NCBI GenBank assembly: GCA_963514005.1 | Contig: OY740782.1 | Coordinates: 24,552,001-24,616,000 of the forward strand | Direction of reading: 5' to 3' | Length of the DNA: 64,000 bases | Origin: Raja brachyura | Lineage: Eukaryota | Part shown: in pieces, positions 5,487 to 60,260 of the stretch | How positions within the stretch are numbered: the first letter of the stretch is position 1 | Layout: each line of letters opens with the position of its first letter | The notes under the pieces: generated by a model | Told to the model about the DNA's origin: nothing | Databases searched by the model: none | Seen by the model: only the letters and a program-made list of their open reading frames with translations | Program-made: the position numbers and the translations under genes

Positions 5487-5875
5487 AGTTAGATACAAAA
5501 ATATGGAGTAACTCAGTGGGACGGGCATTCCATCGCTGGAGAGAAGGAATGGGTGATGTTTCGGGTCGAGACCCTTCTTCAGACTGAAAGTCATGGGAAA
5601 TACAAATGAGATATAGACGATGATGTAGAGAGATAAAGAGCAATGAATGAAAGATATGAAAAAAAGTAACGATGATAAAGGAAACAGGCCATTGTTAGCT
5701 GTATGTTGGTTGAAAACAAGAAGCTGGTGTGACTTAGGTGGGGGAGGGACATTGTTCTTTATCTCTCTACATCATCATCTATATCTCTCGTTTCCCTTTC
5801 CCGTGACTTACGGTCTGAAGAAGGGTATAATTTTTTTTTAAACCAGCATCTGCAGTTCCTTCCTACACAATTCAT
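5487..5875. mobile_element. Fold-back Penelope-derived terminal module
   Basis: Two opposite-orientation copies of the Penelope terminal sequence; candidate TSD ttcactga at 5479-5486 and 5876-5883. Confidence 0.65.
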
Positions 5876-6994: not shown

Positions 6995-7252
6995 AGGTGA
7001 GGAAAACATTTTTCACACAGAGAGTGGTGAGTCTCTGGAATTCTCTGCCACAGAAGGTAGTTGAGGCCAGTTCATTGGCTATATTTAAGAGGGAGTTAGA
7101 TGTGGCCCTTGTGGCTAAAGGGATCAGGGGGTATGGAGAGAAGGCAGGTACAGGATACTGAGTTGGATGATCAGCCATGATCATATTGAATGGCGGTGCA
7201 GGTTCGAAGGGCCAAATGGCCTACTCCTGCACCTATTTTCTATGTTTCTATG
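6995..7252 (+). mobile_element. CR1 LINE 3' end (family C, tail ctatgttt)
   Basis: FFTQRVVSLWNSLPQKVVEA and 3' UTR ggcctactcctgcacctattttctatgtttctatg. Confidence 0.9.
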
Positions 7253-7639
7253 TATCCAAACTGATACCATTGCTTTAAGTGTACAATTTTTAAAAATTGT
7301 ACATTCTTACTTATTTATCTCCATGTGTACTTATGAGAGTGCATAACACTGCATCCTACAGTGGTAAAGGACAGCAGCACTGGCTCATTGTTGGACTGTA
7401 GTATGCACCACGTGTAGTTGCATCACTATTGAATAGACTTCAATCGGCAAGGCATTAAAATACAGAGGTAATGAGGGCAAATGACAATAGTGAAGATGGC
7501 TGGCATGGACATACTCAACTGAATAATCTGTTTCTGTGCTGTACGATTAATGTTACAATGATATCACAACAGTCCACACTAAATAGGTAAGCCACTGTTG
7601 AAAAACAGGATTCCGGATGTTGGTTTGGTAGAGACTGTT

Positions 7640-8870
7640 ACAGAAGCATGTTACCTACTGATAAATCTTCTCACACCTTAAAAAATACCTTGCTCAACAG
7701 AAACAGCAAGATAACTTTAATTCAAAGCCATTTGAAACAATTGAAAGCCAAATGTTTGTGTCTAGAATTCAGAATCAACATGAGACAGTGTTTCATTGGA
7801 TAACTCCATCCTCTGCAAAATGGTGTGACTTTTTGAGTTGTGCCTTAAACAATAGATGGGTGGTCTCATGCACAAATAAATTCAACTAAAATAGTTGTGT
7901 ATGCAAATGCTGACATTTGAACTTGCTTCCAAAGTTGGGGTGTTCATGGACATAGCATCTAAGAATGCTAGAGAATTATTATCCACTATTGGGAATTTGA
8001 GTAGTTATAATCCATAGCTGGAGCAAAGCAGCAATGTCTAAAGCAACAAAATCAAGTTTGCAGTAGAGTGGTGAGGCCAGTTCAGTCAGTTGTTATAGTT
8101 GCAATAGCCAACATTCAACACTCATGACAGCTTATCAGTTTAGGACAGCTGAGTATTTCAGTTGATAATAGAATGGTCATGTCTCAGGAGTCCACAAATC
8201 CAGGCCAATGACAAGTAACAAAAGCAATTTCAGTGGTAATTCAGAACAACAGTAAAAATGAGGACTTTATGGTCAGAAGTTCATTCAGACCACGAGGAAC
8301 TGGTATTATACAATAACTATCCCACAAACAACAATAGTAGTGAACAAACAGATTTCTGAGGAAAGGAGCTGGCTATTAGCCAATGGATTGACATTAAAAT
8401 TGATCTGTCTGAGACTGCGTAATAATGAGCCAAGGCAATTACTCAGGCAACTTCAGTCAGGTACTTATATTGGAAAGCACAGGCACATTGAAAACTATGA
8501 TAAGATCTTATAAATATGACGGCAAATGAATTGCATAGTGGAATGGAACAGATGGGAATGAAAAGGTGAAAACAGGCCAAACTTATTGGAAAACAAATTT
8601 GGTTAAGACAACTCCGATTGGACCGAAAAAATATTTTCTGAATTGGATTTTCAAAGTTAACATCTTATTGTAAAGCCATGATGATATGTTGGAGGATAAC
8701 TATACTAGCAGGACAGGATACAATTTACACATTTGCAACAGATTGGATGCAAAGCTGGTCTTTTGCCAATCCAGACCTGTTCTGTATGCTGTTAACAGTC
8801 AAGTTGAGAAGGGATTGGATAGGCTGGAATAAAGCTGGAGCTCTTGTGAAAACCAACGAGAGCGAGTAAT
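7640..8870 (+). mobile_element. Heavily decayed Ty3/Gypsy internal fragment (gag - protease - start of RT)
   Basis: Manual translation gives LTFELASKV (~7910); a double zinc-knuckle remnant CYSCNSQH...YQFRTAEYFS***NGHVSGV (8091-8195); protease end RPNLL..WLRQLRLD (~8575-8625); RT start RPVLYAVNSQVEKGLDRLE/KAGALVKTNESE (8772-8866). The order is collinear with Gypsy gag-pol. Confidence 0.75.
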
Positions 8871-10469
8871 TATGGTCCAGGGCAATTATGGTCATGACCA
8901 AAGGCAAAAAACATGGGTGCAGCTGCGTGGAAACTAAAAAAGACGCACTAAATCTGGCTGTGGACGAGGAACAAAATCTGTTATATGCTTTGTGAATCTT
9001 GAATGCTGAATCAGCAGGGTCAAAATAGTTCACTAAATTGGACCCTTTCCACACCAACACACAATCTAAGTTAATAAAGATAGTCAGGAGCATCTGCCAA
9101 CTGGCACACAAGTAAGACTCCACTAATACATCCATTTCTTTTCTGACTTGTCAGGCATTGATCCAAGAATTTCCAAAGCCACGATGCATAGGGTTTTGTG
9201 TAACCAACATGATCTGCTGATTGCCATGTGCACTTAGACAGCAATCTTTCTAGAGATGTTACGTACATTATACATCATATTATATGTCAAATCGAGACTA
9301 GACGGTACATGGATAGGACAGGTTTAGCGGAATATTGGCCAAACGCAGGCAGGTGGGACTAGTGTAGCTGGGATATGTTGCTGGTGTGGGCAAGTTGGGT
9401 CGAAGGGCCTGTTTCCACACTGTATCACTCTATGAGATCCTGTTTTAATATGGAATAACTTTGTTTGAGGCCATGACACTGAAAACACTGAATTTTCTAA
9501 TGATGCTGCACCCTGAAATTATCATCCACATGGCTCTTATGACAGTCCTGGGCACAAAATTCTTTTCACATGCAAAGAATTGTGCACAACCATTCATACT
9601 AACTGTGGCAGGTAAATTGCTGGAAACCTGCTCCTATCTATTGGTTGTGGAGACTTTGGCTCAGATTGTTGTCCACATATTTGTTTGCGTGCCGGCAGTC
9701 TAAATTGTAGGTTCACTAGAACGGAACCTCACATTGTAGAGCAAAAAACTGATCCAACTTCAAACATCTGCCTAGGTTGACGGGGTAAGACTTGACCTCA
9801 TCATTGCAAATTAAAACAAACGCTTTTCCATTCTAAAGATGTGACCATTATTTGGCCATTAAGATAAATTGACTTTGGATTGGTGGAATTTTGCAGTTGC
9901 ACTAAGACTGATCATAGGACACATCACATCACAGTCCAAAAAACAAAGGGAATCATGGAGCATGTTCGGACAGTTGTCAGATAAATCTATATTTTCCCGG
10001 AAGTTTGTATTTCTTCAGTAAGATCTCTCCATTTGTAACTTTAGAGAATGCAAAGGGTCTAGATATACACCAGTTTTCATATGGAATCCAGAAACTTCAC
10101 CAAATCCATGTGCAGATAGATCTGATGTCACCTGTTTGCAGTATAATTAGTGGTTGTGGAGCATGTCTTAATTAAGGCGGGCTGTTCCAGTTAGGCAAAT
10201 TCATCTTTGCATCTGATATGTATTTCTATCTGTAAAGTGCTTTGGAATGTCCAGATAATCTAATAGGTGCAACATAAATATATTATTTCAGGATCAGGCT
10301 TAGGCTCCAAGAGTAGAATGGATGCGAGTCTGTACCTGAGAAGTCATAAGGCAATGGGGGTGGATGGCAATGTCGAGTTGGTAAAGTCATGAAATCAATT
10401 ATAACCTAGTTAATGATTGAATGGGATCAAACCATAAAATGGTCTACTCCTTTTTTTGATATTTCTGGA

Positions 10470-13400
10470 TAAAGTGGTAACATGTTTCCTGCCTCGAGAG
10501 TGTCCAAGCCCTTAACAATCTTACATGTTTCAATAAGATTCCCTCTCATCCTTCTAAACTCCACAGTGTATAAGCCCAGCTGCTCTATTCTCTCAGCATA
10601 TGACAGTCCCGCCATCCCGGGAATTAGCCATGTAAACCTATGCTGCACTCCCTCAATAGCAAGAATGTCCTTCCTCAAATTAGGGGACCAAAACTGCACA
10701 CAATACTCCAGGTGTGGTCTCACTAGGGCTCTGTACAACTGCAAAAGGACCTCTTTGCTCCTATATTCAATTCCTCTTGTTACAAAGGCTTTCTTCACTG
10801 CCTGCTTTACCTGCATGCTTACTTTCATAGACTGATGTACAAGGACTCCCAGATCACATTGTACTTCAACTTTTTCCAACTTGACGCCATTTAGATAGTA
10901 ATCTGCCTTCCTGTTTTTGCTCCCAAAGTGGATAACCTCACATTTATCCGCATTAAACTTCATCTGCGATGCATCTGCCCACTCCCCCAACCTGTCCAAG
11001 TCACCCTGCATTATCATAGCATCCTCCTCATAGTTCACACTGCCACCCAGCTTTGTGTCATCTGCAAATTTGCTAATGTTACTTTGAATCTCTTCATCCA
11101 AATCATTGATGAATATTGTAAATAGCTGTGGTCCCAGCACCGAACTTTGCGGTACCCCACTAGTCACTGCCTGCCATTCTGAAAGGGACCTGTTAATCCC
11201 TACTCTGTGTTTCCTGTCTGCCAACCACTTCTCTATCCATTTCAGCACTCTACCCCCAACGTCATGTGCCCTACTTTTGCCCACTAATCTCCTATGTGGG
11301 ACCTTATCAAATGGTTTCTGAACGTCCAGGTACACTACATCCACTGGCTCGCCCTTGTCCATTTTCCTATTTACACCTTCAAAAAATTCCAGAAGATTAG
11401 TCAAGCATGATTTCCCTATCTTCGTAAATCCATGCTGACTCGGACCGATCCTGTTACTGCTACCCAAATGTGCGGCTATCTCATCTTTTATAATTGACTC
11501 CAGCATCTTCCCCACCAACGATGTCAGGCTAACTGGTCTATAATTCCCCGTTTTCTCTCTTCCGCGTTTATAACCATATAACCATATAACAATTACAGCA
11601 CGGAAACAGGCCATCTCGGCCCTTCAAGTCCGTGCCGAACAACTTTTTTCCCTTAGTCCCACCTGCCTGCACTCATACCATAACCCTCCATACCCTTCTC
11701 ATCCATATGCCTATCCAATTTATTTTTAAATGATACCAACGAACCTGCCGCCACCACTTCCACTGGAAGCTCATTCCACACCGCTACCACTCTCTGAGTA
11801 AAGAAGTTCCCCCTCATGTTACCCCTAAACCTCTGTCCCTTAATTCTAAAGTCATGTCTTCTTGTTTGAATCTTCCCTATTCTCAAAGGGAAAAGCTTGT
11901 CCACATCGACTCTGTCTATCCCTCTCATCATTTTAAAGACCTCTATCAAGTCCCCCCTTAACCTTCTGCGCTCCAGAGAATAAAGACCTAACTTATTCAA
12001 CCTATCTCTGTAACTTAGCTGTTGAATCTATGTGAGATTCCACCTCTAATGAACTATGCACGGTTATTCCCAGATCCCTCTGTTCAACTGTATTCTTAAA
12101 TTCCCTACCGTTTACCATGTACGTCCTATTTTGATTTGTCCTGCCAAGGTGTAGCACCTCACATTTATCAGCATTAAACTCCATCTGCCATCTTTCAGCC
12201 CATTTTTCCAACTGGCCTAAATCACTCTGTAGACTTTGGAAATCCTCTTCATTATCCACAACACCCCCTATCTTGGTATCATCTGCATACTTACTAATCC
12301 AATTTACCACCCCTTCATCCAGATCATTGATATACATGACAAACAACAAAGGACCCAACACAGATCCCTGAGGCACCCCTCTAGTCACCTGCCTCCAACC
12401 TGACAAACAGCCATCCACCATTACCCTCTGGCTTCTCCCATTCAGCCACTCTTGAATCCATCTTGCTATTCCTGCATTTATACCCAAGAGTTGAACCTTC
12501 TTAACCAACCTTGCATGAGGAACCTTGTCAAAGGCCTTACTGAAGTCCATATAGACAACATCCACTGCTTTACCCTCGTCAATTTCCCTAGTAACCTCTT
12601 CAAAAAATTCAAGAAGATTAGTCAAACATGACCTTCCAGGCATAAATCCATGTTGACTGTTCCTAATTAGACCCTGTTTATCCAGATACTTATATATATT
12701 ATCTCTAAGTATCTTTTCCATTAATTTGCCCACCACTGAAGTCAAACTAACCGGTCTATAATTGCTAGGTTTACTTTTAGAACCCTTTTTAAACAATGGA
12801 ACAACATGCGCAGTACGCCAATCCTCAGGGACTATTCCCGTTTCTAATGACATTTGAAATATTTCTGTCATAGCCCCAGCTATTTCTACACTAACTTCCC
12901 TCAATGTCCTAGGGAATATCCTGTCAGGACCTGGAGACTTATCCACTTTTTCAAAAGTGTCAGTACTTCTTTTACTTTGAAACTCATAGTATCCTTAGCT
13001 ACTCTACTAGTTTCCCTTACCTCACATAATTCAATATCCTTCTCCTTGGTGAATACCGAAGAAAAGAAATTGTTCAATATCTCCCCCATCTCTTTTAGCT
13101 CTGCAGATAGCTGTCCACTCGGTCTCTCCAATGGACCAATTTTATCCCTTGTTATCCTTTTGCTATTAATATAGCTGTAGAAACCCTTTGGATTTACTTT
13201 CACCTTACTTGCCAAAGCAACCTCATATCTTCTTTTAGCTTTTCTAATTTCTTTCTTAAGATTCTTTCTACATTCCTTATACTCCTCAAGCACCTCATTT
13301 ACTTCATGCTGCCTATAATTTTTGTAGATCTCCCTCTTTTTCCGAACAAGATGTCCAATTTCCCTTGAAAACCAGGGCTCTTTCCAATTTTTACTGGTTC

Positions 13401-15810
13401 CTTTCAACCGAACAGGAACATAAGGATCCTGTACTCTTAAAATTTCCCCTTTAAATGTCCTCCATTTCTCCTCTACATCTTTCCCATAAAACAAAATGTC
13501 CCAGTTCACTCCTTTTAAATCATCTCGCATCTCGTTAAAGTTAGCCTTTCTCCAATCAAAAATCTCAACCCTAGGCCCAGTTCTGTCCTTCTCCATAATT
13601 ATATTGAAACTAATGGTATTGTGATCACTGGACTCGAAGTGCTCCCCAACGCATACCTCTGCCACCTGTCCCGTCTCATTTCCTAACAGGAGGTCCAGCA
13701 TTGCCCCTCCTCTAGTAGGCACCTCTATGTATTGCTGCAAAAAACTATCCTGCACACATTTTACAAACTCCAAACCATCCAGCCCATTTACAGAATGTGT
13801 TTCCCAGTCTATGTGTGGAAAGTTGAAATCTCCCACAATCACTACCTTGTGCTTACTACTAATATCTGCTATCTCTTTACATATTTGCTCTTCCAATTCT
13901 CGTTCCCCATTTGGCGGTCTATAATATACCCCTAAAAGTGTTGCTACACCTTTCCCACTTCTCAGTTCCACCCAAATAGCCTCCCTAGATGAGCCCTCCA
14001 ATCTATCCTGCCAAAGCACTGCTGTAATATCTTCCCTGACTAGCAATGCAACACCTCCACCTCTTGCCCCTCCAATTCTATCACACCTGAAGCAACGAAA
14101 TCCTGGAATATTTAGTTTCCAATCACAGCCCTCCTGCAACCATGTTTCACTGATCGCCACAACATCATACTTCCAGGTGTCTATCCAGACTCTAAGCTCA
14201 TCCACCTTTCTTACAATGCTCCTAGCATTAAAATATGCACATTTAAGAAACCCCTCATCTCTTATTCTCTGTTTATTTCCTTTTTTTTCTTTCTCCTCTT
14301 GTGTCCGAGTGCTTCCCTTTTCTGCTTCCTGCCTCCCATTCTGTCTACTAGCTTTTGCTATTTGCATCCCTCGTCCCAACCATTCTAGTTTAAAGTCTCC
14401 CCAGTGGCCTTACTAGTCCCACCACCAGGATATTGGTCCCCCTCGGGTTCAAGTGCAAGCCATCCTTTCTATACAGGTCCCACCTACCCCAAAAGAAGTC
14501 CCAATGATCTAGAAACTTGAATCCTTGCCCTCTGCATCAGTCTTTCAGCCAAGCATTTATCCTCCACCTTGCTCCATTTCTTCTCTCACTGTCACGTAGC
14601 ACAGGCAGTAATTCTGAGATTGTTACCTTTTTGGTCCTTTTCCTCAACTCTCCTCCCAAGTCCTTAAATCCTCCCTTCAGGGCCTCTTCCCTTTTTTTAC
14701 CTATGTCATTGGTACCTATATGTACCACGACCTCAGGCTCCGCTCCCTCTGATTTGAGGATATCTTGGACACGTCCAAGATCTTGACACCAGGGAGGCAG
14801 ACCACCATCCTGGTCTCCCGACCGCGTCCACAGAAAAAGTTTCTTAAAAAGTGGGAAAACATTAGCTACCCTCCAATCCACAGGAACTGATCCTGCGTCT
14901 ATAGAACATTGGAAAATTATCACCAATGTATCCACGATTTATAGAGCCACTTCCATAAGTACCCTGGGATGCAGACCATTAGGCCCTGGGGATTTATCAG
15001 CCTTCAGTCTCATCAGTCTATCCAACACCATTTCCTGCCTAATGTGGATTTCCTTCAGTTCCTCCATCACCCCAGATCCTCTGGCCACCACTATATCAGG
15101 AAGATTATTTGTGTCCTCCTTAGTGAAGACAGATCCAAAGTACCTGTTCAACTCATCTGCCATTTCCTTGTTCCCCATAATAAATTCCCCTTTTTCGATC
15201 TTCAAGTGTCCAACTTTGGTCTTAACTAATTTTTTCCTCTTCACATACCTAAAGAAGCTTTTACTATCCTGCTTTATATTCTTGGCTAGCTTTCCTTCGT
15301 ACCTCATCTTTTCTCCCCGTATTGTCTTTTTGGTTATCTTCTGTTGTTCTTTAAACATTACCCAATCCTCTTGCGTTCCACTCATCTTTGCTACATTGGA
15401 CTTCTTCGTTTTAATTTTTATACTGTCTCTGACGTCCCTTGTCTGCCATGGTCGTCCCTTTCTCCACTTGGGATCTTTCTTCCTCCTATGAATGAACTGA
15501 TCCTGTACCTTCTGTATTATTCCTAGAAACACCTGCCATTTTTGCTCCATTGTCATCCCTGCTAGTGTATCTTGCCAGTCAACTTTGGCCAGCTCCTCCC
15601 TCATGGCCCCATAGTCCCCTTTATTCAACTGCAACACTGACACCACCAATCTACTCTTCTCCCTCTCCAATTGTTGATTAAACCTGACCATGTTAAGGTC
15701 ACTACCTCTTAATGGCTCATTAAACTCGAGGTCCTTTATCAAATCCGGTTCATTACATAACACTAAATCCAGAATTGCTTTCACCCTGGTAAGCTCCAAT
15801 ACAAGCTGCA
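10470..15810 (-). mobile_element. CR1 LINE (family A) ORF2 fragment, split by a nested CR1 at 11570-14838
   Basis: RT motifs [24 protein letters not shown] and KFADD in 10470-11569. ORF2 resumes at 14839-15810 (DKSPGPNGLHPRVL, ILDLVLCNEP). Confidence 0.93.
11570..14838 (-). mobile_element. Near-full-length CR1 LINE (family B): ORF1 esterase remnant, ORF2 APE endonuclease + RT, (ATATGGTT)n tail; inactivated
   Basis: ORF1 SGNH-esterase motif VVVHIGTND. APE motifs FNARS, ISETWL, VGDFN and SSDH. RT motif YADD. Frameshift near 12950 and an internal deletion near 12026. gttt is present on both flanks. Confidence 0.95.
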
Positions 15811-15861
15811 GCTTAGCTAATACAGGGACCATTCAGTAGACTGATAACATTGAGGAGGATG

Positions 15862-16520
15862 TGTATGGAAGAACTGCAGATGCAGGTTTAAATAGAAGGT
15901 AGACACAAAATGCTGGAGTAACTCAGTGGGTCAGGCAGCATCTCTGGAGGGAAGGAATGGGTGATGCTTCGGGTTGAGATCCTTCTTCAGACTGATGTCA
16001 GGGGAGGGGACGGGACAAAGATAGTGGGAGAACTGGGAAGGGGGAGGGGATAGAGAGGGAAAGCAGTGGCTACCTATATCTGAAGTTAGAGAAGTCAATG
16101 TTCACACCACTGAGGAGTAAACTACTCAAGCAAAATATGAGATGCTGCTCCTCCAATTTGCGCTGGGCCTCACTCTGACAATGGATGACTTCCAGGACAG
16201 AAAGGCAGATTGGGAATGGGAGGGGGAGTTGAAGTGCTGTGCCACTGGGAGATCAGGTGGGTTAAGAGGGACTGAGTGGAGGTGCTCAGCGAAACGATAG
16301 CTGAGCCTGCGCTTGGGCTTGTCGATGTAGAAAAGTGGGCACCTGGAACAGCGGATACAATAGATGAGGTTGGAGGAGGTGCAAGTGAGCCTCTGCCTCA
16401 CCTGGAAAGACTGTTTGGGTTCTTGGATGGAGTCAAGGGGGGGGATGTAAAGGGACAAGTGTTGCGTCTCCTGCGGTTGCTGGGAAAAGTACCTGGGGAG
16501 TGGGTGGTTTGGGTGGGACG
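15862..16520 (-). mobile_element. Penelope-like element 3' fragment (GIY-YIG endonuclease + terminal repeat)
   Basis: TCTSSNLIYCIRCSRCPLFYID...RFAEH...VAQHFNSPSH. Confidence 0.88.
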
Positions 16521-16546
16521 GGAAAAGCAAAGGAACACCTTTCAAT

Positions 16547-16765
16547 ACTGTGTCGGAAGGAACTGCAGATGCTGGTTTAAACCAAAGATAGATACAAAAA
16601 GCTGGAGTAACTCAGCGGGACAGGCAGCATCTCTGGAGAGAAGGAATGAGAGAGAAGAAAGAAGCTTTCTTCAGACTGAAGAAGGGTCCTGACCCGAAAC
16701 GTCACCCATTCATTCTCTGCAAAGATGCTGCTTGTCCCACTGAGTTCCTCCATTTTTTTGTGTCT
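16547..16765. mobile_element. Palindromic Penelope-derived module with 10-bp TSD
   Basis: acctttcaat at 16537-16546 and 16766-16775; two head-to-head terminal copies join at cttcagactgaagaag. Confidence 0.75.
16674..16707 (+). ncRNA. Minimal type-I hammerhead ribozyme motif
   Basis: CTGAAGA-A-GGGTC-ct-GACCC-GAAA-CGTC: both core boxes, stem II, palindromic ACGT stem III and a GUC triplet. Confidence 0.65.
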
Positions 16766-16786
16766 ACCTTTCAATGCCTTCTGTTC

Positions 16787-16914
16787 ACGAGGAAATGCAG
16801 ATGCTGGAAAATTGAAGATAGACAAAAGTGTTGGAGAAACTCAGCGGGTGCAGCAGCATCTATGGAGCGAAGGAAATAGGCAACGTTTCGGGCCGAAACC
16901 CTTCTTCAGACCCT
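16787..16914 (-). mobile_element. 128-bp Penelope-derived module starting at a hammerhead motif, 9-bp TSD
   Basis: cttctgttc at 16778-16786 and 16915-16923. The minus strand reads gtCTGAAGAagggtTTCGgcccGAAAcgtt near its start. Confidence 0.75.
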
Positions 16915-19194: not shown

Positions 19195-22100
19195 AATAGA
19201 CAATAGAAAATAGGTGCAGGAGTAGGCCATTCGGCCCTTCGAGCCAGCACCACCATTCAATGTGATCATGGCTGATCATCCCCAATCAGTACCCCATTCC
19301 TACCTTCTCCCAATATTCCCTGACTCTGCTATCTTTAAGAGCCCTATCTAGCTCTCTCTTGAAAGGATCCAGAGAACCGGCCTCCACCGCCCTCTGAGGC
19401 AGAGAATTCCACAGACTCACAACTCTCTGTGAGAAAAAGTGTTTCCTCGTCTCCGTTCTAAATGGCTTACCACTTATTCTTAAACTGTGGTCCCTTGTTC
19501 TGCACTCCCCCAACATCGTGAACATGTTTCCTGCCTCTAGCATGTCCAAACCCTTAACAATCTTATATGTTTCAATAAGATTCTCATCCTTCTAAACTCT
19601 AGAGTGTACTGCTGGCGAGAAGGGTCGAATGGCCTACTCCTGCACCTATTGTCTATTGTACAAGCCCAGCCGCTCCATTCTCTCAGCATATGACAGTCCT
19701 GTCATCACGGGAATTAACCTTGTAAACCTATGCTGCACTCCCTCAATAGCAAGCATGTCATTCCTCAAATTAGGGGGCCAAAACTGCACACAATACTCCA
19801 GGTCTGGTCTCACTAGGGTTCTGTACAACTGCAGAAGGACCTCTTTGCTCCAATACTCGAAGGCCAATAAACGCCAACATGCCATTTTCTTTCTTCACTG
19901 CCTGCTGTACCTGCATGCTTACTTTCATAGACTGATGAACAAGGACCCCCAGATACCATTGTACTTCCCCTTTTCCCAACTTGACACCATTTAGATAGTA
20001 ATCTGCCTTCCTGTTTTTTATACCAAAGTGGATAACTTCACATTTATCCGCATTAAACTTCATCTGCCATGCATCTGCCCACTTCCCCAACCTGTCCAAG
20101 TCACCCTGCAGTCTCATAGCATCCTCCTCACAGTTTACACTGCCACCCAGTGTCATCTGCAAATTTGCTAATGTTACTTTGAATCCCTTCACCCAAATCA
20201 TAGATGGATATTGTAAATAGCTGCAGTCCCAGCACCGAGCCTTGCGGTACCCCACTAGTCACTGCCTGCCATTCTGAAAGGGACCCATTAATCCCTACTG
20301 TTTGTTTCTTATCTGGCAACCAATTTTCTATCCATGTCAGCACTCCACCCCCAATACTGTGTGCCCTAATTTTGCCCACTAATCTCCTATGTGGGACCTT
20401 ATCAAATGCTTTCTGAAAGTCCAGGTACACTACATCCACTGGCTCTCCCTTATCCATTTTCCTAGTTACATCTTAAAAAAATTCCAGAAGATTAGTCAAG
20501 CATGATTTCCCCTTCGTAAATCCATGCTGACGCGTACCGATCCTGTTACTGCTATCCAAATGTGCGGCTATTTCATCTTTTATAATTGATTCCAGCATCT
20601 TCTCCACCACCGATGTCAGGCTAACTGGTGTTTAATTCCATGTTTTCTCTCTCCCGCCTTTCTTAAAAAGTGGGAAAACATTAGCTACCCTCCAATCCCC
20701 AGGAACTGATTCTGAGTCTTTAGAACATTGCAAAATTATCGCCAATGCATCCACAATTTCTAGGGCCACTTCCTTAAGTACCCTGGAATGCAGACCATCA
20801 GGCCCTGGGGATTTATCAGCTTTCTGCCTATTTTCCTGCCTAATGCTTTCTGCCCATTTCGTACCTAATGTGGATTTCCTTCAGTTCCTCCGTCACCCCA
20901 GATCCTCTGGCCACTACTATATCAGGAAGATTGTTTGTGTCCTCCTTAATGAAGACAAATCCAAAGTACCTGTTCAACTCATCTGCCATTTCCTTGTTCT
21001 ACATATTAAATTCACCTTCAAGGGTCCAACTTTGGCCTTAATTAATTTTCTTCTCTTCGCATACCTAAAGAAGCTTTTACTATCCTCCTTTATATTCTTG
21101 GCTAGCTTACCTTCGTACCTCATCTTTTCTCCCCGTACCGTCTTTTTATTTATCTTCTGTTGCTCCTTAAACATTACCCAATCCTTTTGTTTCCCGCTCA
21201 TCCTTGCTACGTTGTACTTCTTCTCTTTTATTTTTATACTGTGCCTGACGTCCCTTGTCAGCCACGGTCGCCCCTTACTCCCCTTGGAATCTTTCTTCCT
21301 CCTAGGAATGAACTGATCCTGCACCTTTTTTAAGGATAAGGGGGAAATTTTTTAGGACTGAGATGAGAAAAACATTTTTCACTCAGAGTGGTGAATCTCT
21401 GAAATTCTCTGCCACAGAAGGTAGTTGAGGCCAGTACATTTGCAATATTTAAGAGGGAGTTAGATGTGGCCCTTGTGGCTAATGGGATCAGGGGGTATGG
21501 AGAGAAGGCAGGTAAGCGATACTGAGTTGGATGATCAGCCATGATCATATTGAATGGTGGTGCAGGCTCGAAGGGCTGAATGGCCTACTCCTGCACCTAT
21601 TTTCTATGTTTCTATGTTTCTTCTGTATTATTCCTAGAAATACCTGCCATTTTAATCCACTGTCATCCCTGCTAGTATATCTTTCCAGTCAACTTTGGCC
21701 GCTCCTCCTTCGTGGCCCCATAGTCCTCTATTCAACACTGACACCTCCGATCTACCCTTCTCCCTCTCCAATTGTAGATTAAACCTGACCATGTTATGGT
21801 CACTGCCTCCCAATGGCTCATTTACCTCGAGGTCCTTTATCAAATTCGGTTCATTACATAACACTAAATCCAGAATTGCCTTCTCCCTGGTAGGCTCCAA
21901 TACAAGCTGCTCTAAGAATCCATCAGAAAGGCACTTTACAAAGTCCCTTTCTTGGGGTCCAGTACCAACCTGATTTCCCCAGTCTACCTGCATGTTGAAA
22001 TCTCCCATAACAACTACAGCATTACCTTTGCTACATGCCAATTTTAACTCCTGATTCAACTTGTACCCTATGTCCAGGCTACTGTTTGGGGGCTTGTAGA

Positions 22101-22340
22101 TGTCCCATTGGTGTCTTTTTACCCTTATAATTCCTTAGTTCTATCCATACTGACTCCACATCTCCTGTTTCAATGTCACCCCTTGCAAGTGACTGAATTT
22201 CATTCCTCACCAACAGAGCAACCCCATCCCCTCTGCCCACCTGTCTGTCTTTTCGATAGGAGGTACACCCTTCAATATTCAGTTCCCAGCCCTGGCCCTC
22301 GTGCAGCCATGTCTCTGTAATACCCACAACATCATACTTG
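19195..22340 (-). mobile_element. CR1 LINE (family A, tail tattgtc), APE to 3' end, frameshifted, with nested CR1 3' ends at ~19609-19657 and ~21328-21620
   Basis: [32 protein letters not shown]. Nested inserts are in the opposite orientation. Confidence 0.93.
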
Positions 22341-22980
22341 TGAGTGCTAATATTGATTAGCCACTTTCTATGAAAAATAAAGGGAATGAGAATTTTCCAT
22401 TTTTCTTAATTTTGACATTAGCTTAGCGACATTTTTTTTCCATGAGACTTTAGCTAGTGTAAGAGGCAGTCACATGCCAGCTTACTTTATAGAAATCATT
22501 TGGAATGTCTCCAACTGAAGTAAAGAAATCTAAAATCTCAGCACAAGAACAATGAAAGTTTTTTTCTGAAATATTACTACTGATCTCATTTTTGTATCTT
22601 TACATTTTGCCCTGTGGAATTTTCCTTGAAAACATTGGCCAAAATTAATTTTATTTTCTTGCCATCATTGCTTTAGATACCACAAGATGCAGAATGCTCT
22701 TTGGAGGCAGTAAATGCAACAGCAATAGAATGATTTCTTTTTAAATGTAATTTCATCATGATTAGAATCTGCCATGAAATTTCAGGCAACTCCCCACCCC
22801 CACCTTCTACACCACCCGATGCTAGGGGACAAATTAAATCTGCGTAATTAAATCAATAAAGGGCAAACAAAGAACACCTAAGTTGTCCAAATTAATTTGC
22901 CTAAAACATACTGTTGTGAGTGAAAAGGCGACTTTCCATTCTGGAATCGTCGCAGAATTTAAACAAGTGGTAAAACTCAC

Positions 22981-25573: not shown

Positions 25574-26520
25574 ATACCCATATAACCATATAACAATTAC
25601 AGCACAGAAACTGGCCTTCTCGGCCCTTCTAGTCCGTGCCGACCATTTATTTTCCCCTTGTCCCATCTACCTGCACTCAGACTATACCCCTCCATTCCCT
25701 TCCTGTCCATATACCTATCCACTTTACTTTTAAATGTTAAAATCAATCCTGCCTCCACCACTTCTGCTGGAAGATCATTCCACACAGCCACCACTCTCTG
25801 AGTAAAGAAGTTCCCCCTCATGTTACCCCTAAACTTCTGTCCCTTAATTCTCATATCATGCCCATTTGTTTGAATCTTCCCTACCCTCAATGGGAAAAGC
25901 TTATCCACGTCAACTCTGTCTATCCCTTTCATCATTTTAAAGACCTCAATCAAGTCCCCCTTAACCTTCTGCACTCCAAAGAATAAAGACCTAACTTGTT
26001 CAACCTTTCTCTGTAACTTAGTTGCTGGAACCCAGGCAACATTCTAGTAAATCTCCTCTGTACTCTCTCTATTTTGTTGACATCCTTCCTATAATTAGGC
26101 AACCAAAATTGTACACCATACTCCAGAATTGGTCTTACCACTGCCTTGTACAATTTTAACATTACTTCCCTACTCCTATATTCAATGTTCTGATTTATAA
26201 AGGCCAGCACACCAAAAGCTTTCTTTACCACTCCATCTACATGTGATTCCACCTTCAGGGAACTATGCACAATTATTCCTAGATCCCTCTGTTCCACAGC
26301 ATTCCTCAAGTCCCTACCATTTACCATGTATGTCGTATTTTGATTTGTCCTGCCAAGATGTAGCACCTCACACTTATCAGCATTAAACTCCATCTGCCAT
26401 CTTTCAGCCCACTCTTCCAAATGGCCCAAATCTCTCTGTAGACTTTGAAAATCTACTTCATTATCCACAGCACCACCTATCTTAGTATCATTTGCATACT
26501 TACTTATCCAATTTTCCACC
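25574..26520 (-). mobile_element. CR1 LINE (family B) 3' fragment
   Basis: WISKYANDTKIGG...FFTQRVVAVWN; (aaccatat)n tail. Confidence 0.93.
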
Positions 26521-26708
26521 ATTTAAAGACATTTAGACATGCACCTGGCAAATGGGATCAGCTGGGATGGGGTATCTAGATCGGCAAGGACGAATTAGGT
26601 CAAAGGACCTGTTTCCATGCTGTATGACTCTATATGTTTCAGACTGGATAGGGAGTACTCACTTCCCATGGAAACACTGCCCTTGACAGGGAATATAACC
26701 TGAATATC

Positions 26709-27748: not shown

Positions 27749-28839
27749 GAATATCAACAGCTAGACCTTTCAGTCTTACTGTCCCGACAATCCAAGCACC
27801 ATGGTGATTTACTGCTATAATTATAAAATCTCCAGACTTTTTAATTCATTGCAAAAAGAGGCATAGAGTAAAATATTCAGATTTGAGACCTTAATAGACT
27901 GATCAATACGCCTTCCATTTTCACATTTGGGTTCAGGTATTATATCACATTCCATTATTTGCTTGTATTATTTGAAAAAAAAGTGCCTTTTCTATTTTTG
28001 GGCCCCATTGATGCTTTCCGTGCCCAATGCTGGTGTCTGGAGTCCATCAACAGAGAACAATCTTGTCACTGTGGTGGTGTGCTTCTTTTGACAACATATT
28101 TAACAAACAAGAGCATTCATATTCTAAGCAGCAAATCAACATGGGATGCAGGCTGTAATGATAGTTCTCTCCAACATAGTCACACATAACAATGACAAAC
28201 TATTCACTTCCATGCTTTCTTTTAACAAAAACAAACATATCTATTAATTTACTATAGAGGTTTCTGCATGTTTTTTCTTCTTTTCTTCTATTGCTCTAGA
28301 TATCCCCAAAAGAGCAGGCACTTACTGTCATAAACTATTTTTGTCAATACCTTCTGTTTATATCTTCCCATCTCCACCTCTTTCTGCTTTCCGCAAAGAC
28401 TGTTCCCTCCGAAAATCCCCGGTCAACTCGTCCCTTCCCACCCAAACCACCCCCACCCCAGGTACTTTCCCCTGCAACCACAGGAGATGCAACACCTGTC
28501 CATTTAGCTCCCACCTCGACTCCATCCAAGAACCCAAACAGCCTTTTCAGCTGAGGCAGAGGTTCACTTGCACCTCCTCCAACCTCATCTATTGTATCTG
28601 CTGTTCCAGGTGTCAGCTTCACTACATTGGCGAGACCAAGCGCAGGCTCGGCGATCATTTCGCTGAACACCTCCGCTCAGTCCGTCTTAACCTACACGAT
28701 CTCCCGGTGGGTCAGCACTTCAGCTCCCCCTCCCATTCCCAATCTGCCCTTTCTGTCATGGGCCTCCTTCATTGTCAGAGTGAGGCCCAGTTCAAATTGG
28801 AGGAACAACACCTCATATTTCCCTTGGGTAGTATACACG

Positions 28840-29967
28840 CAGGGGTGCAATGCTGCCGGAGCAGACCAGAGAACCGCTCTGGCACCTCTGTAAATAAAAA
28901 AGACAAAAAAAACCAGCGGGAATTTTAACTAGAGTAGAGATACGGGTCGGTGGCAGCAGCATCGGTGGCCCCGGAGAGGTGGTGAGAGTCGGCAGCCACG
29001 GGTTATGGGTTTGGCCCTGAAGGCGGTGAGGGTCGCAGAGGCGGTGGATGTTGTTGCTGTTCCATGTGGTGGCCATCTCGGCCTCATGGTGGTCGTGCAG
29101 GCGGAGCCGCGGTCCAGCGTTGGAGCTCCGGGCCTGCGGGCGAGCGGTCGAGTCGGGGAGTGTCGGTGGAGGGACCAGTCTGGAGGCGGGCAAGCTTGTA
29201 ATCCTTGGTCGAGTCCAGATAGGCGAGGAACCGTTTGTTGAGGGTGTGGATCTGGCGTTGAATTAAGTACAGTTGTGGTCCATTGCTGGTTTAGGTGGGT
29301 CAGTGAGCGAGTGAGTGGGAAGCGGTGGGTGAGTGGGTGAGTGAGTTCGTTCGCTCGCGTGTCAACCAACGTATAGCTCGCTGTTGGCTTCTGTCGTCAT
29401 CCAACAAGTTGACAGAATTGGTCACCGACGCGTCATGGAGTGCATCGTGCCGTCGTTTCCGGGGATTGCCACGAGGGGGCTTCTGTCATGATCCCCGGTG
29501 AGTGAGTGGGGGTGTGTNNNNNNNNNNNNNNNNNNNNNNNNNNNNNNNNNNNNNNNNNNNNNNNNNNNNNNNNNNNNNNNNNNNNNNNNNNNNNNNNNNN
29601 NNNNNNNNNNNNNNNNNNNNNNNNNNNNNNNNNNNNNNNNNNNNNNNNNNNNNNNNNNNNNNNNNNNNNNNNNNNNNCAGGACGAGTTGATGCCGGGCCG
29701 GCACCTTTGTAAAAATACATGATTACCATCGTTTTCATTACTTGCTTGATAATTATATTTCATGAAAATTAGTAAGTGCAACCATGTAATATTTTGTCAT
29801 ATTATTAAATTATGTACTAAATGTTTTATTATACACTGGGATGTAGTGATACGCTATAATCTTGTTTGACCCTCTTGGAAGACTAGCTTGCCCCCCCCCA
29901 AGCAAAACCGGAAATGATGCCCGTCTTCGACAGTTCCGACACCTAAATAATTAGCACTCAAACACTG
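28840..29967. mobile_element. GC-rich hAT-like non-autonomous element spanning the assembly gap
   Basis: Ends caggggtgcaatgct / agcactcaaacactg (imperfect TIR). Degenerate 8-bp TSD tatacacg / tttaaacc. It cleanly interrupts the Penelope copy. Confidence 0.55.
29518..29677. other. Assembly gap (160 N)
   Basis: Run of n. Confidence 1.
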
Positions 29968-43710: not shown

Positions 43711-43865
43711 ACATTCACACTCAGTCACACAAGAGATATTTGTCTTTTACCCACTCCTTTCTTGATTTTCATATTTTTGATTTCCATGCAACTATATACT
43801 GTGAAACTAATTTATGAAACTTGCTCTAATCAGTTTACCAAACATCATACAACAATCTAATGTTT

Positions 43866-44142
43866 AAGAAAGAACTGCAGATGCTGGAAAAATCGAAGGT
43901 AGACAAAAATGCTGGTGAAACTCAACGGATGAGGCAGTATCTAAGGAGCGAAGGAATAGGTGATGTTTCGGGTCAAGACCCTTCTTCAGACTGATGTGGA
44001 GGTGGGGGAGGGGGGGCGGAAGAAAGGAAGAGGTGGAGACTGTTGGCTGTGAGAGAGCTAGGAAGGGGAGGGGAAGGAGGGAGAAAGCAAGGACTACCTG
44101 AAATTGGAGGTCAATGTTCATACCGCTGGGGTGTAAACTGCC
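43866..44142 (-). mobile_element. Penelope terminal fragment with hammerhead-like motif
   Basis: The minus strand carries ctgaagaagggtcttgacccgaaacatc. Confidence 0.75.
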
Positions 44143-47751: not shown

Positions 47752-48761
47752 AATATATAATTACTGATGTGTTATTAATGCTTTGCTCATTATTTGTGCT
47801 TTTATTAAACAGAAATGCTGATGGATAGATGCCTAACTTGTGTTGTCACAGTGTGTTGTCACATTGTGCAAAACTCATTATGAACTTCATCCTTTCTAAG
47901 AAAATGATGCGAGGGTGAGCTATTGTTTTATAAAACACACACTAAAATTTTCTGCAATGCTGCAGGATTCATCTTTGCCCTCATGTACAATGAGCCACTT
48001 CACAATTCATTCTTAATGGTATTTTCTGAAAAAAGTGTCTGGACATCCATTATGTTCCTCGCGTGGCACCATAACAAGGAAACAAACAAAGTATGAACAA
48101 TAATGCTCTTTTTCCCTGGCTACAACACATCTGCCCTCTTTTCTGTGCACAATCCTCCAGCTTACAGAACTTCAATTGCAAAGCATAGTCACTGAGAGAG
48201 AGCCTTGAAGTTGATAACTCGTTCTCTAAATTGTCCTTGAAATCCTTGGCAGGAGACTGATGGAATCTCCATCGAAACAGGGTACACAGCCACTTTCAGC
48301 AGTTTACGGAATTTCTCTGTGGTTTGTAGGCCAGTTGTTTAAAGGCCATCTGATCAGAGTTCAGGGCTGTCATGTGGAGGGAGGATAAAAATAATTGAGG
48401 TAACGGAATTCTATGAACAAAGGTTGTAAATTTGGTGAAAAACATAAAGGAAGCCTATTTAATGTTTAAAAAGAAATCGGACAGGGTCTTTGAGGAAGAT
48501 AAAGCAAGCAGAAAAAAACTCATGGGTGCCATTAGATGTGCCAAAAGGGGCCATGAATTTCATTGGGGTCGGAGAAATGAACATTAATATGGACATTAAA
48601 AATAAGAGGATAACCAAGGAGCAGGTAGGGCCACTCAAGGATAAAGGAGGCAATTTATACTTGGAATCAGGGGATGTAGGGGAAATTAGTACTTTTCATC
48701 TGTATTCAGGAAGAAGGACATAGAGGCCTGTGAGGTCAGTGTGAGTCATACATATGTGCAA

Positions 48762-49400
48762 GAAGGAACAGCAGATGCTGGTTTAAACCGAAGATAGACA
48801 CAAAAAGTTGGAGTATCTCAGCGGGACAGGCAGCATCTCTGGAGAGAAGGAATGGGAGATGTTTCGGGTCGAGACCCTTCTTCAGAATGGCTAGGGATAA
48901 GGGAAACTAGAGATATAGACAATGTGGAGAGATAAAGAACAATGAATGAAAGGTAAGCAAAAAAAGTAATGATGATAAAGGAAACAGGCCATTGTAAGCT
49001 GTTTGTAGGGTGAAAATGAGAATCTAGTGTGACTTGGGTGGGGGAGTTTTTAGAGAGAGAGGAAATGCCGGGGCTACCTGAAGCGAGAGAAATCAATATA
49101 CATACCACTGGTATCCTTTCATTCATTGTTCTTTATCTCTCCACATCACCGTCTATATCTCTCATTTCCCTGATCCCTAACCAGCCTGAAGAAGGGTCTC
49201 GACCCGAAACATCGCCTATCTCCTTCGCTCCTTAGATGCTGCTGCACCCGCTGAGTTTCTCCAGCTTTTTGTGTACCCTACATACCACTGGGCTGTAAGC
49301 TGCCCAAGTTAAATATGAGATGCTGTTCCTCCAATTTGCGTTTAGCCTCACTCTGACAATGGAGGAAACCGAGGACAGAAAGGTCTGTGTAGGAATAGGA
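48762..49400 (-). mobile_element. Penelope 3' fragment carrying an inverted 167-bp nested module (49112-49278)
   Basis: 13-bp TSD tacataccactgg at 49099-49111 and 49279-49291. Both parts carry ctgaagaagggtctcgacccgaaac. Confidence 0.82.
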
Positions 49401-55866: not shown

Positions 55867-56756
55867 GAAGAGCCCGTTCCTGTGCTGTACGGTTCTATGC
55901 TCTAAGTTCAGATGATGGAATCATGAACAAAATACAAAGTGCTGGAGGAACTCCACAAGTCAGGTAGCATCAGTGGGAGGAATGGACTGGCGACGTTTCA
56001 GGTCAGGACCCTTCTTCAGATTGATCAAAGTGCCCGTTGGTCAGAAGATGGGTTCTGATTTGAAATGCCGCATGTCTATGTTAGCAATTGGACTTGGCTT
56101 AATCTGACCTGCTGGGATTTGATTGGTAACATCAGTTTAAATTCAGACTTCTACTTCCTACAATGGCAATAAGAGACATTCCACTGGCTGAAACCCAGAC
56201 TGTTGCAAAATATATAATGCCAGGTCCCAATTCTCTCTGGTCGATTTATTATTTTGCAGCTTGGGAGGCGAGTTGAATCTACAGGAATAAATGTCTGAAG
56301 CACCAATGAATAAAACAAGTGATTGGAAAATCCTTATTTCTTACAGTCACAAGGGTATGAAAAACAGCTTCAAGTCAGGTAAAAATAAATAGAGAGGGGG
56401 TGAAAGAAGTTGATAGCAAAATCAAAATTTCTGATGAATACATTTTATTTGTAGTAACTGTTTGGAACAAATTGGTGCTGATCATACCTGGAACAAGCTG
56501 CTAGGGGAGCCAGTGGAATTGCATACAATTATGTCTAAAAGGCCTATAGGCAAGATACTTACAAAGGAAAGGCATCTGGGTGATATTGGCTCACTGTGGG
56601 CAAATGGGGCAAGCATGGATAAGCATCACATGGACATTTCTGTGCTATGTGTTTCTATGATTCTTACACAGTCTCTAACTTTGCTGAAAATTCTGTCAAT
56701 GGAATATTATCCCACAGTAAACACCTGACACCTCCCCTCTGTTCATCTCAATTACC

Positions 56757-58550: not shown

Positions 58551-58559
58551 TAGCAAACA

Positions 58560-60260
58560 AATCTGGTTTAAAAATCACAAACTGCTGCAGTAACTCAATG
58601 GATCAGGCAGCATCCCTGGTAACATTTCAGGTCGGAACCCTTATTCACACTGATTGTAGGTGCGGGGAAGGGAAGATAGTTGGAAAAGAGGTGGGGCAGG
58701 ACAGAGCGTGGCTGGTAATATGTGAACACAGGTGAGGGGATTATGTAGGAAGGAACGGTAGATGGTGGTTTTAACCGAAGATAGACACAAAATGCTGGAG
58801 TAACTCAGCGGGACAGGCAGCATCTGTGGAGAGACGGAATGGGAGTCATTTCGAGCCATGACCCTTCTTCGGAAGAAGGCCATCTACTATCTACAGTTGG
58901 GGGGATTGTTTCATAGATTGTTGGGCAAAGGCCAGTGTTGAGGAGGCAGGCAAGGGCCTGAGATGATAAAGCATTGAGAATTCTTGTGCTCAGGGATAGA
59001 AAAGTTGTGAATTGTGTATCCATTGCAAATGCTACAGTGGCGATGGGGAAAAACAGGTACAAGGTCAGCCAGGTTTCAGCGGATGGGGATTAAAAAGAGT
59101 GGGAGGGGAGGGATGTGTAAAAGAAAGGAGGGGTTCTGGGGAGGCTAAAGGAGAGGGGGAAGCAGGCTGTAGTGAGTTAGTTACTTAAAATTGGAAAATT
59201 CAATGTTCATACCATTGGGTTATAAGCTACCCAAGTGGAATAGGAGGTGATGCTCCTCCAGTTTGCTTGTGACCTCACTTTGGCAATGGAGGAGGACCAG
59301 GACAGAAAGGTCAGTATGGGAATGGTTAACAACCAGAAGATCCTGTAGGCTTTGGCAGGGCGAATACAAGTGCTTGGCAAAGTTGTCGCCGAGTCTATGC
59401 TTGGTCTTGTTGATATACAGAAGCCCACACTGGGAACACCGGATGCAGTGGATGAGGTTAGAGGAGGTGAATGTGCACTTCTGTCTCACTTGGAAGACTT
59501 CTGGGGTCCCTGGATGGAGGTGTGGCAGGAGGTATAATGACAGGTATTACATGTCCTGTAATTGCAGGAGAAAGTACCTGGGGAATGGGTGGTTTGGTCT
59601 CCTAATCTAAGGAAAGACATTCTTGCCATAGAGGGAGTACAGAGAAGGTTCACCAGACTGATTCCTGGGATGGCAGGACTTCCATATGAAGAAAGACTGG
59701 ATAGACTCGGCTTGTACTCGCTGGAATTTAGAAGATTGAGGGGGGATCTTATAGAGACTTACAAAATTCTTAAAGGGTTGGACAGGCTAGATGCTGGAAG
59801 ATTGTTCCCGATGTTGGGGAAGTCCAGAACAAGGGATCACAGTTTAAGGATAAGGGGGAAGTCTTTTAGGGCTGAGATGAGAAAATTATTTTTCACACAG
59901 AGAGTGGTGAATCTCTGGAATTCTCTTCCACAGATTGGAATATATTTCATTGGCTATATTTAAGAGGGAGTTAGATGTGGCCCTTGTGGCTAAAGGGATC
60001 AGGGGGTATGGAGAGAAGGCAGGTACAAGATACTGAGTTAGATGATCAGCCATGATCATATTGAATGGCAGTGCAGGCTCGAAGGGCCGAATGGCCTACT
60101 CCTGCACCTATTTTCTATGTTTCTATGAAGGGAAGAGTGAACCAAAGAGTTGCTGAGGAAGCGGTTGGCATAAGGCGGGAATGGGAGGCGAGTGGAAAAT
60201 GTGACGCGCTGGGATCTGGTTGGAAATTGCGGAAATGTCGGAGGGTGATGTGTTAAAAAT
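58560..60260 (-). mobile_element. Penelope-like 3' fragment with nested CR1 family C (+, ~59590-60127)
   Basis: NLIHCIRCSQCGLLYI...LEEHHLLFHLGSL. The Penelope sequence resumes after the CR1 tail at aagggaagagtgaaccaaagagttg. Confidence 0.85.

What the first reader, a model, noticed from the sequence alone, without database searches (positions are those of the whole stretch)
16547..16914. Short hammerhead-ribozyme modules that insert on their own (retrozyme-like Penelope derivatives)
Seen: the motif CTGAAGA-A-GGGTC-nn-GACCC-GAAA-CGTC recurs about a dozen times. Clear copies are at 5551-5586(-), 15960-15993(-), 16674-16707(+), 16881-16911(-), 43960-43993(-), 48858-48886(-), 49186-49215(+) and 55990-56021(-); degenerate copies are near 4355, 6838, 33880 and 58850. 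Stem II stays paired while the loop varies (tc, ct, tt, or a GGGT-TTCG-GCCC hairpin). At least three units of 128-219 bp lack any ORF yet have their own 9-13 bp TSDs (16547-16765, 16787-16914, 49112-49278), and one starts essentially at the ribozyme core. Established: Penelope-like elements carry minimal type-I hammerheads with a palindromic stem III thought to cleave as dimers. Inference: this is a non-autonomous, ribozyme-bearing SINE-like family mobilised by Penelope RT/GIY-YIG in elasmobranchs. Caveats: stem I is only about 2 bp in my reading, and there is an extra A before stem II.
Basis: partly seen in the sequence, partly recalled or inferred. Interest (0 to 1): 0.7.

Follow-up and report, generated by a model that had tools for sequence, protein, structure and literature searches.

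The report
Penelope retrotransposon's short ribozyme-bearing run-off copies
These short repeats are end pieces of an intact Penelope-type jumping gene; most begin exactly at the front edge of its hammerhead-ribozyme motif rather than at the predicted cut site, likely because reverse transcription runs off the start of the element's RNA, which would reveal where that RNA begins.

Summary
The motif is real: 12 named copies in the window and 56,295 exact cores in the 2.7-Gb genome. It is the known minimal type-I hammerhead in the terminal repeat (pLTR) of a Neptune-type Penelope element that still has intact ~1,190-aa RT/GIY-YIG copies. The short units carry the same sequence as that pLTR, have no diagnostic variants and form no cleavage-register tandems, so a separate SINE or retrozyme family is not supported.

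The endpoints are not random either. Numbering the predicted cleavage base as 0, 55 of 89 young copies start at -27..-35, the ribozyme's 5' edge (about 1 expected), and 0 of 45 anchor-selected copies start at the cleavage site. An extra G often precedes the edge (54% and 63%, background about 30-36%). Copies that have already traversed the ORF never stop there (0 of 9).

Best reading: short run-off cDNAs from an RNA starting at an Initiator-like site at -30/-29. Ribozyme activity and the RNA start are untested. A separate SINE with a CPEB3-like HDV ribozyme lies at 725-919.

The parts
16547..16765 (.). Fold-back (head-to-head) pLTR insertion: minus-strand 3' arm 16547-16648 ending in the tail, inversion point at the 5' edge of the core (16668-16676), plus-strand arm 16676-16765
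   Evidence: TSD 16537-16546/16766-16775; 1,042 perfect palindromic fold-backs of this kind genome-wide
16676..16703 (+). Minimal type-I hammerhead core, A subfamily; predicted cleavage after 16703 (GUC)
16787..16914 (-). Edge-type module, B subfamily: starts at G-29 (16911) after 3 extra bases ending in G, ends in the tail
   Evidence: TSD 16778-16786/16915-16923
16882..16909 (-). Minimal hammerhead core with UUCG loop and GUU triplet; the only window copy with core, palindrome, stem II and both stem I pairs
49112..49278 (+). Young (Y) subfamily copy, 5'-truncated about 100 nt upstream of the cleavage site, 3' end near +65, nested in an older Penelope copy; core 49186-49213 has lost the palindrome
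15860..16530 (-). 5'-truncated Penelope copy with GIY-YIG remnant, 3' UTR, decayed core (15963-15990) and tail
48755..49090 (-). 5'-truncated Penelope copy with long 3' UTR and core 48858-48885
43861..44130 (-). 5'-truncated Penelope copy with endonuclease C-terminal remnant and core 43962-43989
5487..5875 (.). Inverted pLTR insertion with core 5555-5582(-); 8-bp direct repeat 5479-5486/5876-5883
28407..28844 (+). Penelope CX4CxxC + GIY-YIG fragment used to find the autonomous family
   Evidence: (PF01541, E 0.023, below cut-off)
55992..56019 (-). Older core copy
58744..58873 (-). Older degenerate module

Best explanation
The short units are pieces of the terminal repeat of an intact Neptune-type Penelope element, likely made when its reverse transcriptase starts at the repeat-ORF junction near the RNA's 5' end and runs off that end, which is predicted to be a capped transcription start at the 5' edge of the hammerhead motif. 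Shown: sequence identity with the autonomous pLTR; 3' ends at two sites (+62..+69 and +99..+103); 5' ends at -27..-35; TSDs of 8-17 bp; an excess of G next to the edge; fold-back inversions centred on the edge. From the literature: in the anole Poseidon element RT starts internally at two sites flanking the 'tail' and needs the ORF start downstream (PMC11167929); Penelope has an internal promoter in the pLTR (PMC2377424). Inferred: an RNA starting at A-30/G-29 offers only a 95-130-nt template at its first junction. The run-off cDNA gains an untemplated C (read as G), then integrates, folds back on the CAG-T-CTG palindrome, or jumps template. Long and full-length copies would need a tandem, circular or strand-transferred template, and that is where the ribozyme may act. 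Inserted modules then decay neutrally.
For: Partner: 23 of 31 GIY-YIG hits have the core within 700 nt downstream. All 20 long-ORF loci fetched carry it 3' of the ORF and 9 also 5'. L172 has a 1,191-aa ORF with weak RVT_1 and GIY-YIG hits. Edge pile-up: 55 of 89 young copies at -27..-35, 3 at -36..-100, 31 beyond; 1.1 expected from the upstream hazard. Not conditioned on the core: 18 of 29 and 8 of 16 at the edge, 0 of 29 and 0 of 16 at +5..-3. Genome-wide exact counts: 4,464 diverge just 5' of A-30, 7,033 just 5' of G-29, 9,216 are intact to -38. Extra G: 54 of 100 and 63 of 100 listed matches against 0.29-0.36 background, p<1e-4. In non-fold-back copies 26 of 55, against 4 of 29 in upstream-truncated controls, Fisher p=0.004. 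The six 1-2-nt inserts between TSD and A-30/G-29 are G, G, G, GG, GG, GA. Not an RT barrier: 0 of 9 ORF-spanning copies that pass the core stop at the edge. YCAGTCT fits the Initiator consensus YYANWYY (recalled) with A at -30. One insertion (L009) holds a -31..+202 segment running into the ORF start.
Against: No RNA 5'-end data: only contigs were available. A linear mRNA starting at -30 should also give full-length copies ending at -30, and none of 13 did, so an extra step must be assumed. The extra G shows run-off at best, not a cap; I found no paper for cap-G in this search (precedent recalled). Ends spread over about 5 nt. The DPE match is poor against Penelope's RGACGTGY (PMC2377424). 40 of 87 non-fold-back copies had no TSD found, and about 10 of the 87 were long copies with an upstream variant. 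The +14 allele differs between edge (14 of 151) and long copies (27 of 91, p<0.001); the long set was enriched by my choice of intact loci, but different sources are possible. The sample of 89 is one 4-Mb stretch of C1 and counts 18 fold-back arms and one duplicated locus singly per core.
Confidence: 0.58

Rival explanations
1. The RNA end at -30 is real but uncapped: a 5'-to-3' exonuclease trims longer transcripts until blocked by the folded or protein-bound pLTR domain, and RT runs off that end.
For: Same run-off signatures. The young module's minimum-energy fold pairs its 5' edge with the tail end. The 5-nt spread suits trimming.
Against: Folding is not significant: z -2.2 to +1.2 over 7 copies, and the closing helix appears in only some. 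The G excess then needs a C-preferring terminal transferase.
Confidence: 0.15
2. One reading: a self-propagating non-autonomous SINE or retrozyme family, transcribed from solo modules and processed by its ribozyme.
For: Discrete lengths, own TSDs and tens of thousands of copies. Non-LTR retrozymes derive from pLTRs and occur in one chondrichthyan (bioRxiv 10.64898/2026.07.22.740005). The +14 allele frequency differs between edge and long copies. A solo module would keep an internal promoter.
Against: No edge-specific variant over 89 positions, and similar age (1.26 vs 0.99 mismatches). 2 of 151 have a same-strand neighbour; no tandem array in the window. No ends at the cleavage site. Solo modules lack the ORF start that the anole protein needs (PMC11167929; other clade).
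Confidence: 0.12
3. The edge is a 3' splice site (pyrimidine tract, CAG|T), as in D. virilis, where the intron ends at helix I.
For: Acceptor-like sequence precedes the core. Precedent in PMC4209133. Exon ends are often AG or G.
Against: No shared upstream exon. Where a TSD is found it lies within 34 nt in 41 of 47 cases, mostly within 16 nt, leaving no room for an exon; the inserts are local duplications or G. GAG and GG before T are not the usual exon ends (recalled).
Confidence: 0.08
4. Ordinary 5' truncation, with RT stalling at the ribozyme fold.
For: 31 of 89 copies are scattered upstream truncations. Microhomology at 10 of 47 TSD junctions.
Against: 55 observed against 1.1 expected. The stop is on the far side of the fold. 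0 of 9 second-pass copies stop there, p about 2e-4 at a 62% stop rate. The G excess is edge-specific.
Confidence: 0.07

Closest known systems
Minimal hammerheads (min-HHR) in pLTRs of metazoan Penelope-like elements (Cervera and de la Pena 2014, PMC4209133)
   Same: Type I order, extra nucleotide before stem II, G10.1-C11.1 pair, palindromic 15.2-16.2, a motif in both pLTRs, many solo and opposite-strand copies
   Different: Stem II is 4 bp plus a tetraloop and stem I is 2 bp (as in the D. virilis variant). 56,295 exact cores against 4,000-9,000 reported for coelacanth and Xenopus. A fixed 5' edge is not described in the parts I read.
Neptune-clade EN+ Penelope-like elements (PMC8557442, passages)
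   Same: Single RT + CX4CxxC + GIY-YIG ORF, partial tandems, inverted 5' copies, optional ~34-nt tail, TSDs
   Different: Most insertions are a 95-130-nt pLTR piece with a defined start rather than scattered truncations. No tree was built; Nematis shares the Cys motif.
Anole Poseidon (PAc) internal RT initiation (PMC11167929)
   Same: Two 3' ends about 35 nt apart, downstream of a hammerhead whose cleavage does not define the insertions
   Different: Other clade; here the ORF starts after the tail, not in stem II; activity untested
Non-LTR retrozymes (bioRxiv 10.64898/2026.07.22.740005)
   Same: Short, non-coding, pLTR-related, type-I hammerhead
   Different: Retrozymes are defined there as tandem units; these are dispersed monomers or inverted pairs not in cleavage register
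Minus-strand strong-stop DNA of LTR retroelements (recalled)
   Same: Short cDNA from a priming site near the RNA 5' end to that end
   Different: Here it would be target-primed and integrated directly; analogy only

Membership tests
PLE minimal type-I hammerhead | Core CUGANGA ... GAAA ... UH in type-I order | tested here: met
   core 28 of 28 identical between subfamilies A and Y, against 51 of 64 downstream and 21 of 33 upstream
PLE minimal type-I hammerhead | Unpaired base before stem II, G10.1-C11.1, palindromic minimal stem III | tested here: met
   features listed in PMC4209133
PLE minimal type-I hammerhead | Stem covariation | tested here: inconclusive
   One-sided changes only in stem II; one double change in stem I in a single copy; not above shuffles (15 sequences, mostly decayed copies)
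PLE minimal type-I hammerhead | Self-cleavage (dimer or protein-assisted) | not testable with these tools
   The active fold is not the minimum-energy monomer or dimer structure
Rfam Hammerhead_1 | Covariance model hit | tested here: not met
   No hit at E<=1
Neptune-type EN+ PLE (partner) | Single ORF with RT and C-terminal GIY-YIG, flanked by pLTRs | tested here: met
   (Pfam hits below curated cut-offs)
Neptune-type EN+ PLE (partner) | CX2-5CxxC linker motif | tested here: met
   CX4CxxC before the endonuclease; motif defined in PMC8557442
Neptune-type EN+ PLE (partner) | RT phylogeny within Neptune | not tested
   No reference RT set at hand
Non-LTR retrozyme | Tandem units, each with a hammerhead | tested here: not met
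   2 of 151 edge copies have a same-strand neighbour; none in the window; rare arrays elsewhere in the genome are not excluded
Non-LTR retrozyme | Unit boundaries at the cleavage site | tested here: not met
   0 of 45 at +5..-3 in sets 1-2; 2 of 50 (at +4, +5) in the core-selected set 3
Non-LTR retrozyme | Abundant circular RNA | not testable with these tools
   Only contigs available
SINE (own lineage) | Diagnostic sequence distinct from the autonomous partner | tested here: not met
   young subfamily only

The most novel reading that the evidence does not exclude
Penelope elements replicate through an LTR-like strong-stop step. The hammerhead motif doubles as the 5' end of a capped transcript, RT first copies only this 95-130-nt piece, and failure to transfer strands has filled this genome with tens of thousands of ribozyme modules. 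Full-length copies would come from ribozyme-made circles or repeated strand transfer: 4 of 13 end at +15..+101, and one carries the same rare variant in both repeats. Some solo modules could be the seeds of retrozymes.
Probability: 0.3. Interest if true: 0.72.

Novelty: new variant of a known kind. Interest (0 to 1): 0.46.

Why it matters
The template and replication cycle of Penelope elements, and the role of their hammerheads, are open questions. Thousands of dated junctions here point to one RNA 5' end and show that self-cleavage does not set the insertion boundary. With intact young autonomous copies in the same genome, the promoter, strong-stop and circle models become directly testable. 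It also warns that hammerhead counts in such genomes are mostly decayed by-products.

Tried and rejected
Rfam found no hammerhead family. RNA evidence: four public runs were available only as contigs of other organisms, one probably DNA. They show a depth step at the edge, but this is confounded by subfamily differences upstream, so I did not use it. Whole-module folding gave no consistent signal. One search had the stem I brackets one column off and was redone. A generic descriptor over all held DNA gave 272 hits dominated by this one family, with no covarying relative. The tandem-repeat scan of the window found no module array. No shared upstream exon was seen. The 59 of 73 edge count across all subfamilies in 664 kb of unselected DNA is an upper bound, because old copies with unknown 3' UTRs look like edges; one or two such cases are also among the 18 set 1. 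Five copies scored at -193 stop at a poly-C run and were left out of the G control. Lunse et al. 2017 is not held; I saw only its citation in PMC6765202. No description of this fixed 5' edge turned up in searches, and no non-mammalian CPEB3-like SINE in searches (listings only). Supplements were not read and Repbase/Dfam could not be searched, so the family itself may already be catalogued. Earlier-findings look-ups returned nothing.

Full report
Numbering used throughout: the predicted cleavage base (C of GUC) is 0; the first C of the core is -27.

1. Observation. The motif is present at all stated places and far above chance: 6 strict matches against 0 in 100 shuffles, and 13 relaxed against 0 in 20. 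The three TSDs are exact: 10, 9 and 13 bp. The genome holds 56,295 exact 28-nt cores in 2.70 Gb, with 0 for the reversed control. Unit 16547-16765 is a head-to-head fold-back whose inversion point is the 5' edge of the core. Unit 16787-16914 starts at G-29 after three extra bases ending in G. Unit 49112-49278 starts near -100. Most window copies are decayed: 3 of 12 keep core, palindrome and stem II. Stem II shows only one-sided changes and the alignment does not beat shuffles. Rfam has no hammerhead hit.

2. What it belongs to. A GIY-YIG fragment from the window retrieved genome copies; 23 of 31 alignments have the core within 700 nt downstream, mostly 125-150 nt. An RT query gave 150 scored hits, and I fetched 20 chosen mainly for long open frames. 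All 20 have the core 3' of the ORF and 9 also just 5' of it. L172 is a complete ~3.97-kb unit with a 1,191-aa ORF: RT, CX4CxxC linker, GIY-YIG. That is a Neptune-type architecture by PMC8557442 (passages read); no tree was built. The motif is the minimal hammerhead that PMC4209133 (parts 1-2 of 4 read) describes in pLTRs, including the extra base before stem II and, in D. virilis, a 2-bp helix I. The core is identical between subfamilies A and Y (28 of 28) while flanks have diverged (51 of 64 and 21 of 33), which suggests selection during amplification, on the ribozyme or on a promoter.

3. Are the short units their own family? In the young subfamily, 151 edge copies and 91 longer copies share the same sequence over 89 positions, with similar divergence (1.26 vs 0.99 mismatches) and no edge-only variant. 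One allele (+14) differs in frequency, 14 of 151 against 27 of 91; the long set is biased by my choice of intact loci. Only 2 of 151 have a same-strand neighbour. They therefore fail the tandem definition of non-LTR retrozymes in bioRxiv 10.64898/2026.07.22.740005 (parts 1-3 of 5 read).

4. Endpoints. I took the first 100 exact cores on contig C1, 89 of them young. 3' ends are bimodal at +62..+69 and +99..+103, matching the two RT start sites flanking the tail in PMC11167929 (parts 1-2 of 4 read). 5' ends: 55 at -27..-35 (18 of them fold-back arms), 3 at -36..-100 and 31 further up; the upstream rate predicts 1.1 in that 9-nt bin. With an anchor at +27..+61 that ignores the core, 18 of 29 first matches and 8 of 16 in 664 kb of unselected DNA start at the edge, and none at +5..-3. 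Genome-wide, 4,464 copies diverge just before A-30 and 7,033 just before G-29, against 9,216 intact to -38. 1,042 sites are perfect palindromic fold-backs centred on -28. Older subfamilies, which most window copies belong to, show the same edge (59 of 73, an upper bound).

5. Why the edge. A type-I hammerhead cuts 3' of its core, so cleavage would leave ends at +1, which are not seen. A structural RT barrier is unlikely: of 13 copies that span the ORF start, 9 pass the core and none stops at the edge, and 4 end at +15..+101. The base 5' of the edge is G in 54 of 100 and 63 of 100 listed matches, against 0.29-0.36 expected. In non-fold-back copies it is 26 of 55, against 4 of 29 at upstream truncations. 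Where a TSD was found (47 of 87), it is mostly 8-17 bp and usually lies within 16 nt; the 1-2-nt inserts before A-30/G-29 are G, G, G, GG, GG and GA. I infer that RT reached a template end. The sequence there, YCAGTCT, fits the Initiator consensus (recalled) with A-30 as +1, and Penelope has a pLTR-internal promoter (PMC2377424, passages). In the anole protein RT initiation needs the ORF start downstream, so an RNA starting at -30 would yield mainly this short cDNA. That step is extrapolated across clades.

6. What remains unexplained. A linear RNA from -30 should also give full-length copies ending at -30; none was seen. Long copies need tandem read-through, circles or strand transfer. One full-length copy (L178) has the same rare core variant in both repeats, 2 of 181 young cores held. 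This fits one template copied twice but is a single case. Cleavage activity is untested, and the active fold is not the computed minimum for monomer or dimer. RNA data were contigs only.

7. Internal contrast. The Rfam scan pointed to a different element at 725-919: a ~190-bp SINE with an (AAG)n tail. In 29 of 30 copies it begins at the G that an HDV-fold ribozyme would expose, 27 of 30 have a TSD, and 8 of 10 tested pass the CPEB3_ribozyme gathering score. There the ribozyme site is the boundary; in the hammerhead modules it is not.

8. Verdict. The ribozyme-Penelope link is known and this is a new, very abundant member. The fixed 5' edge with an extra G was not found described in searches of an open-access library; Lunse et al. 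2017, supplements and Repbase could not be read. Interest 0.46; new variant of a known kind.

Noticed in passing
window 725-919 (+); L275-L303: A separate ~190-bp SINE starts at G1 of an HDV-fold ribozyme very like the mammalian CPEB3 ribozyme (6-bp P1, 8-bp P2, CUAA junction). 8 of 10 copies pass Rfam RF00622 gathering (best 43.2 bits), 27 of 30 have TSDs, the tail is (AAG)n, and there are 143 exact 36-nt matches and 2,595 first-look candidates. It may bear on a retrotransposon origin of the CPEB3 ribozyme and deserves its own follow-up; partner LINE and activity are untested.
   Followed up: partly
L172 3643-7741; L171-L190: Intact young autonomous Neptune-type copies with ~1,190-aa ORFs, longer than the 800-900 aa called usual in PMC3846280; the N-terminal ~650 aa has no Pfam hit.
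   Followed up: partly
L171, L175, L180, L181: Four of 13 ORF-spanning copies end at +15..+101, about one unit length.
   Followed up: partly
L178 2340 and 6370: The same rare N7 variant in both pLTR cores of one full-length copy.
   Followed up: partly
L009 (G000 C1 about 660,000-660,400): Complex insertion of three segments, each starting at -30/-31; one extends to +202 into the ORF start, suggesting template jumps at the RNA end.
   Followed up: partly
window 62388-63389 (-): 333-aa open frame with tyrosine-recombinase (Phage_integrase) hits, likely a DIRS-type retrotransposon.
   Followed up: no
window 10427-15832, 19286-22405, 25597-26522, 54735-55837, 57644-58602: Many CR1-type LINE fragments, including endonuclease and RT frames (family name from recalled motifs).
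   Followed up: no
window 39562-40377 (+): RT-like frame with an ALKBH8_N (PF09004) hit, probably another LINE family.
   Followed up: no
window 5598-5804: The MIR408 and MIR2118 Rfam hits are far below gathering and arise from inverted pLTR arms.
   Followed up: yes
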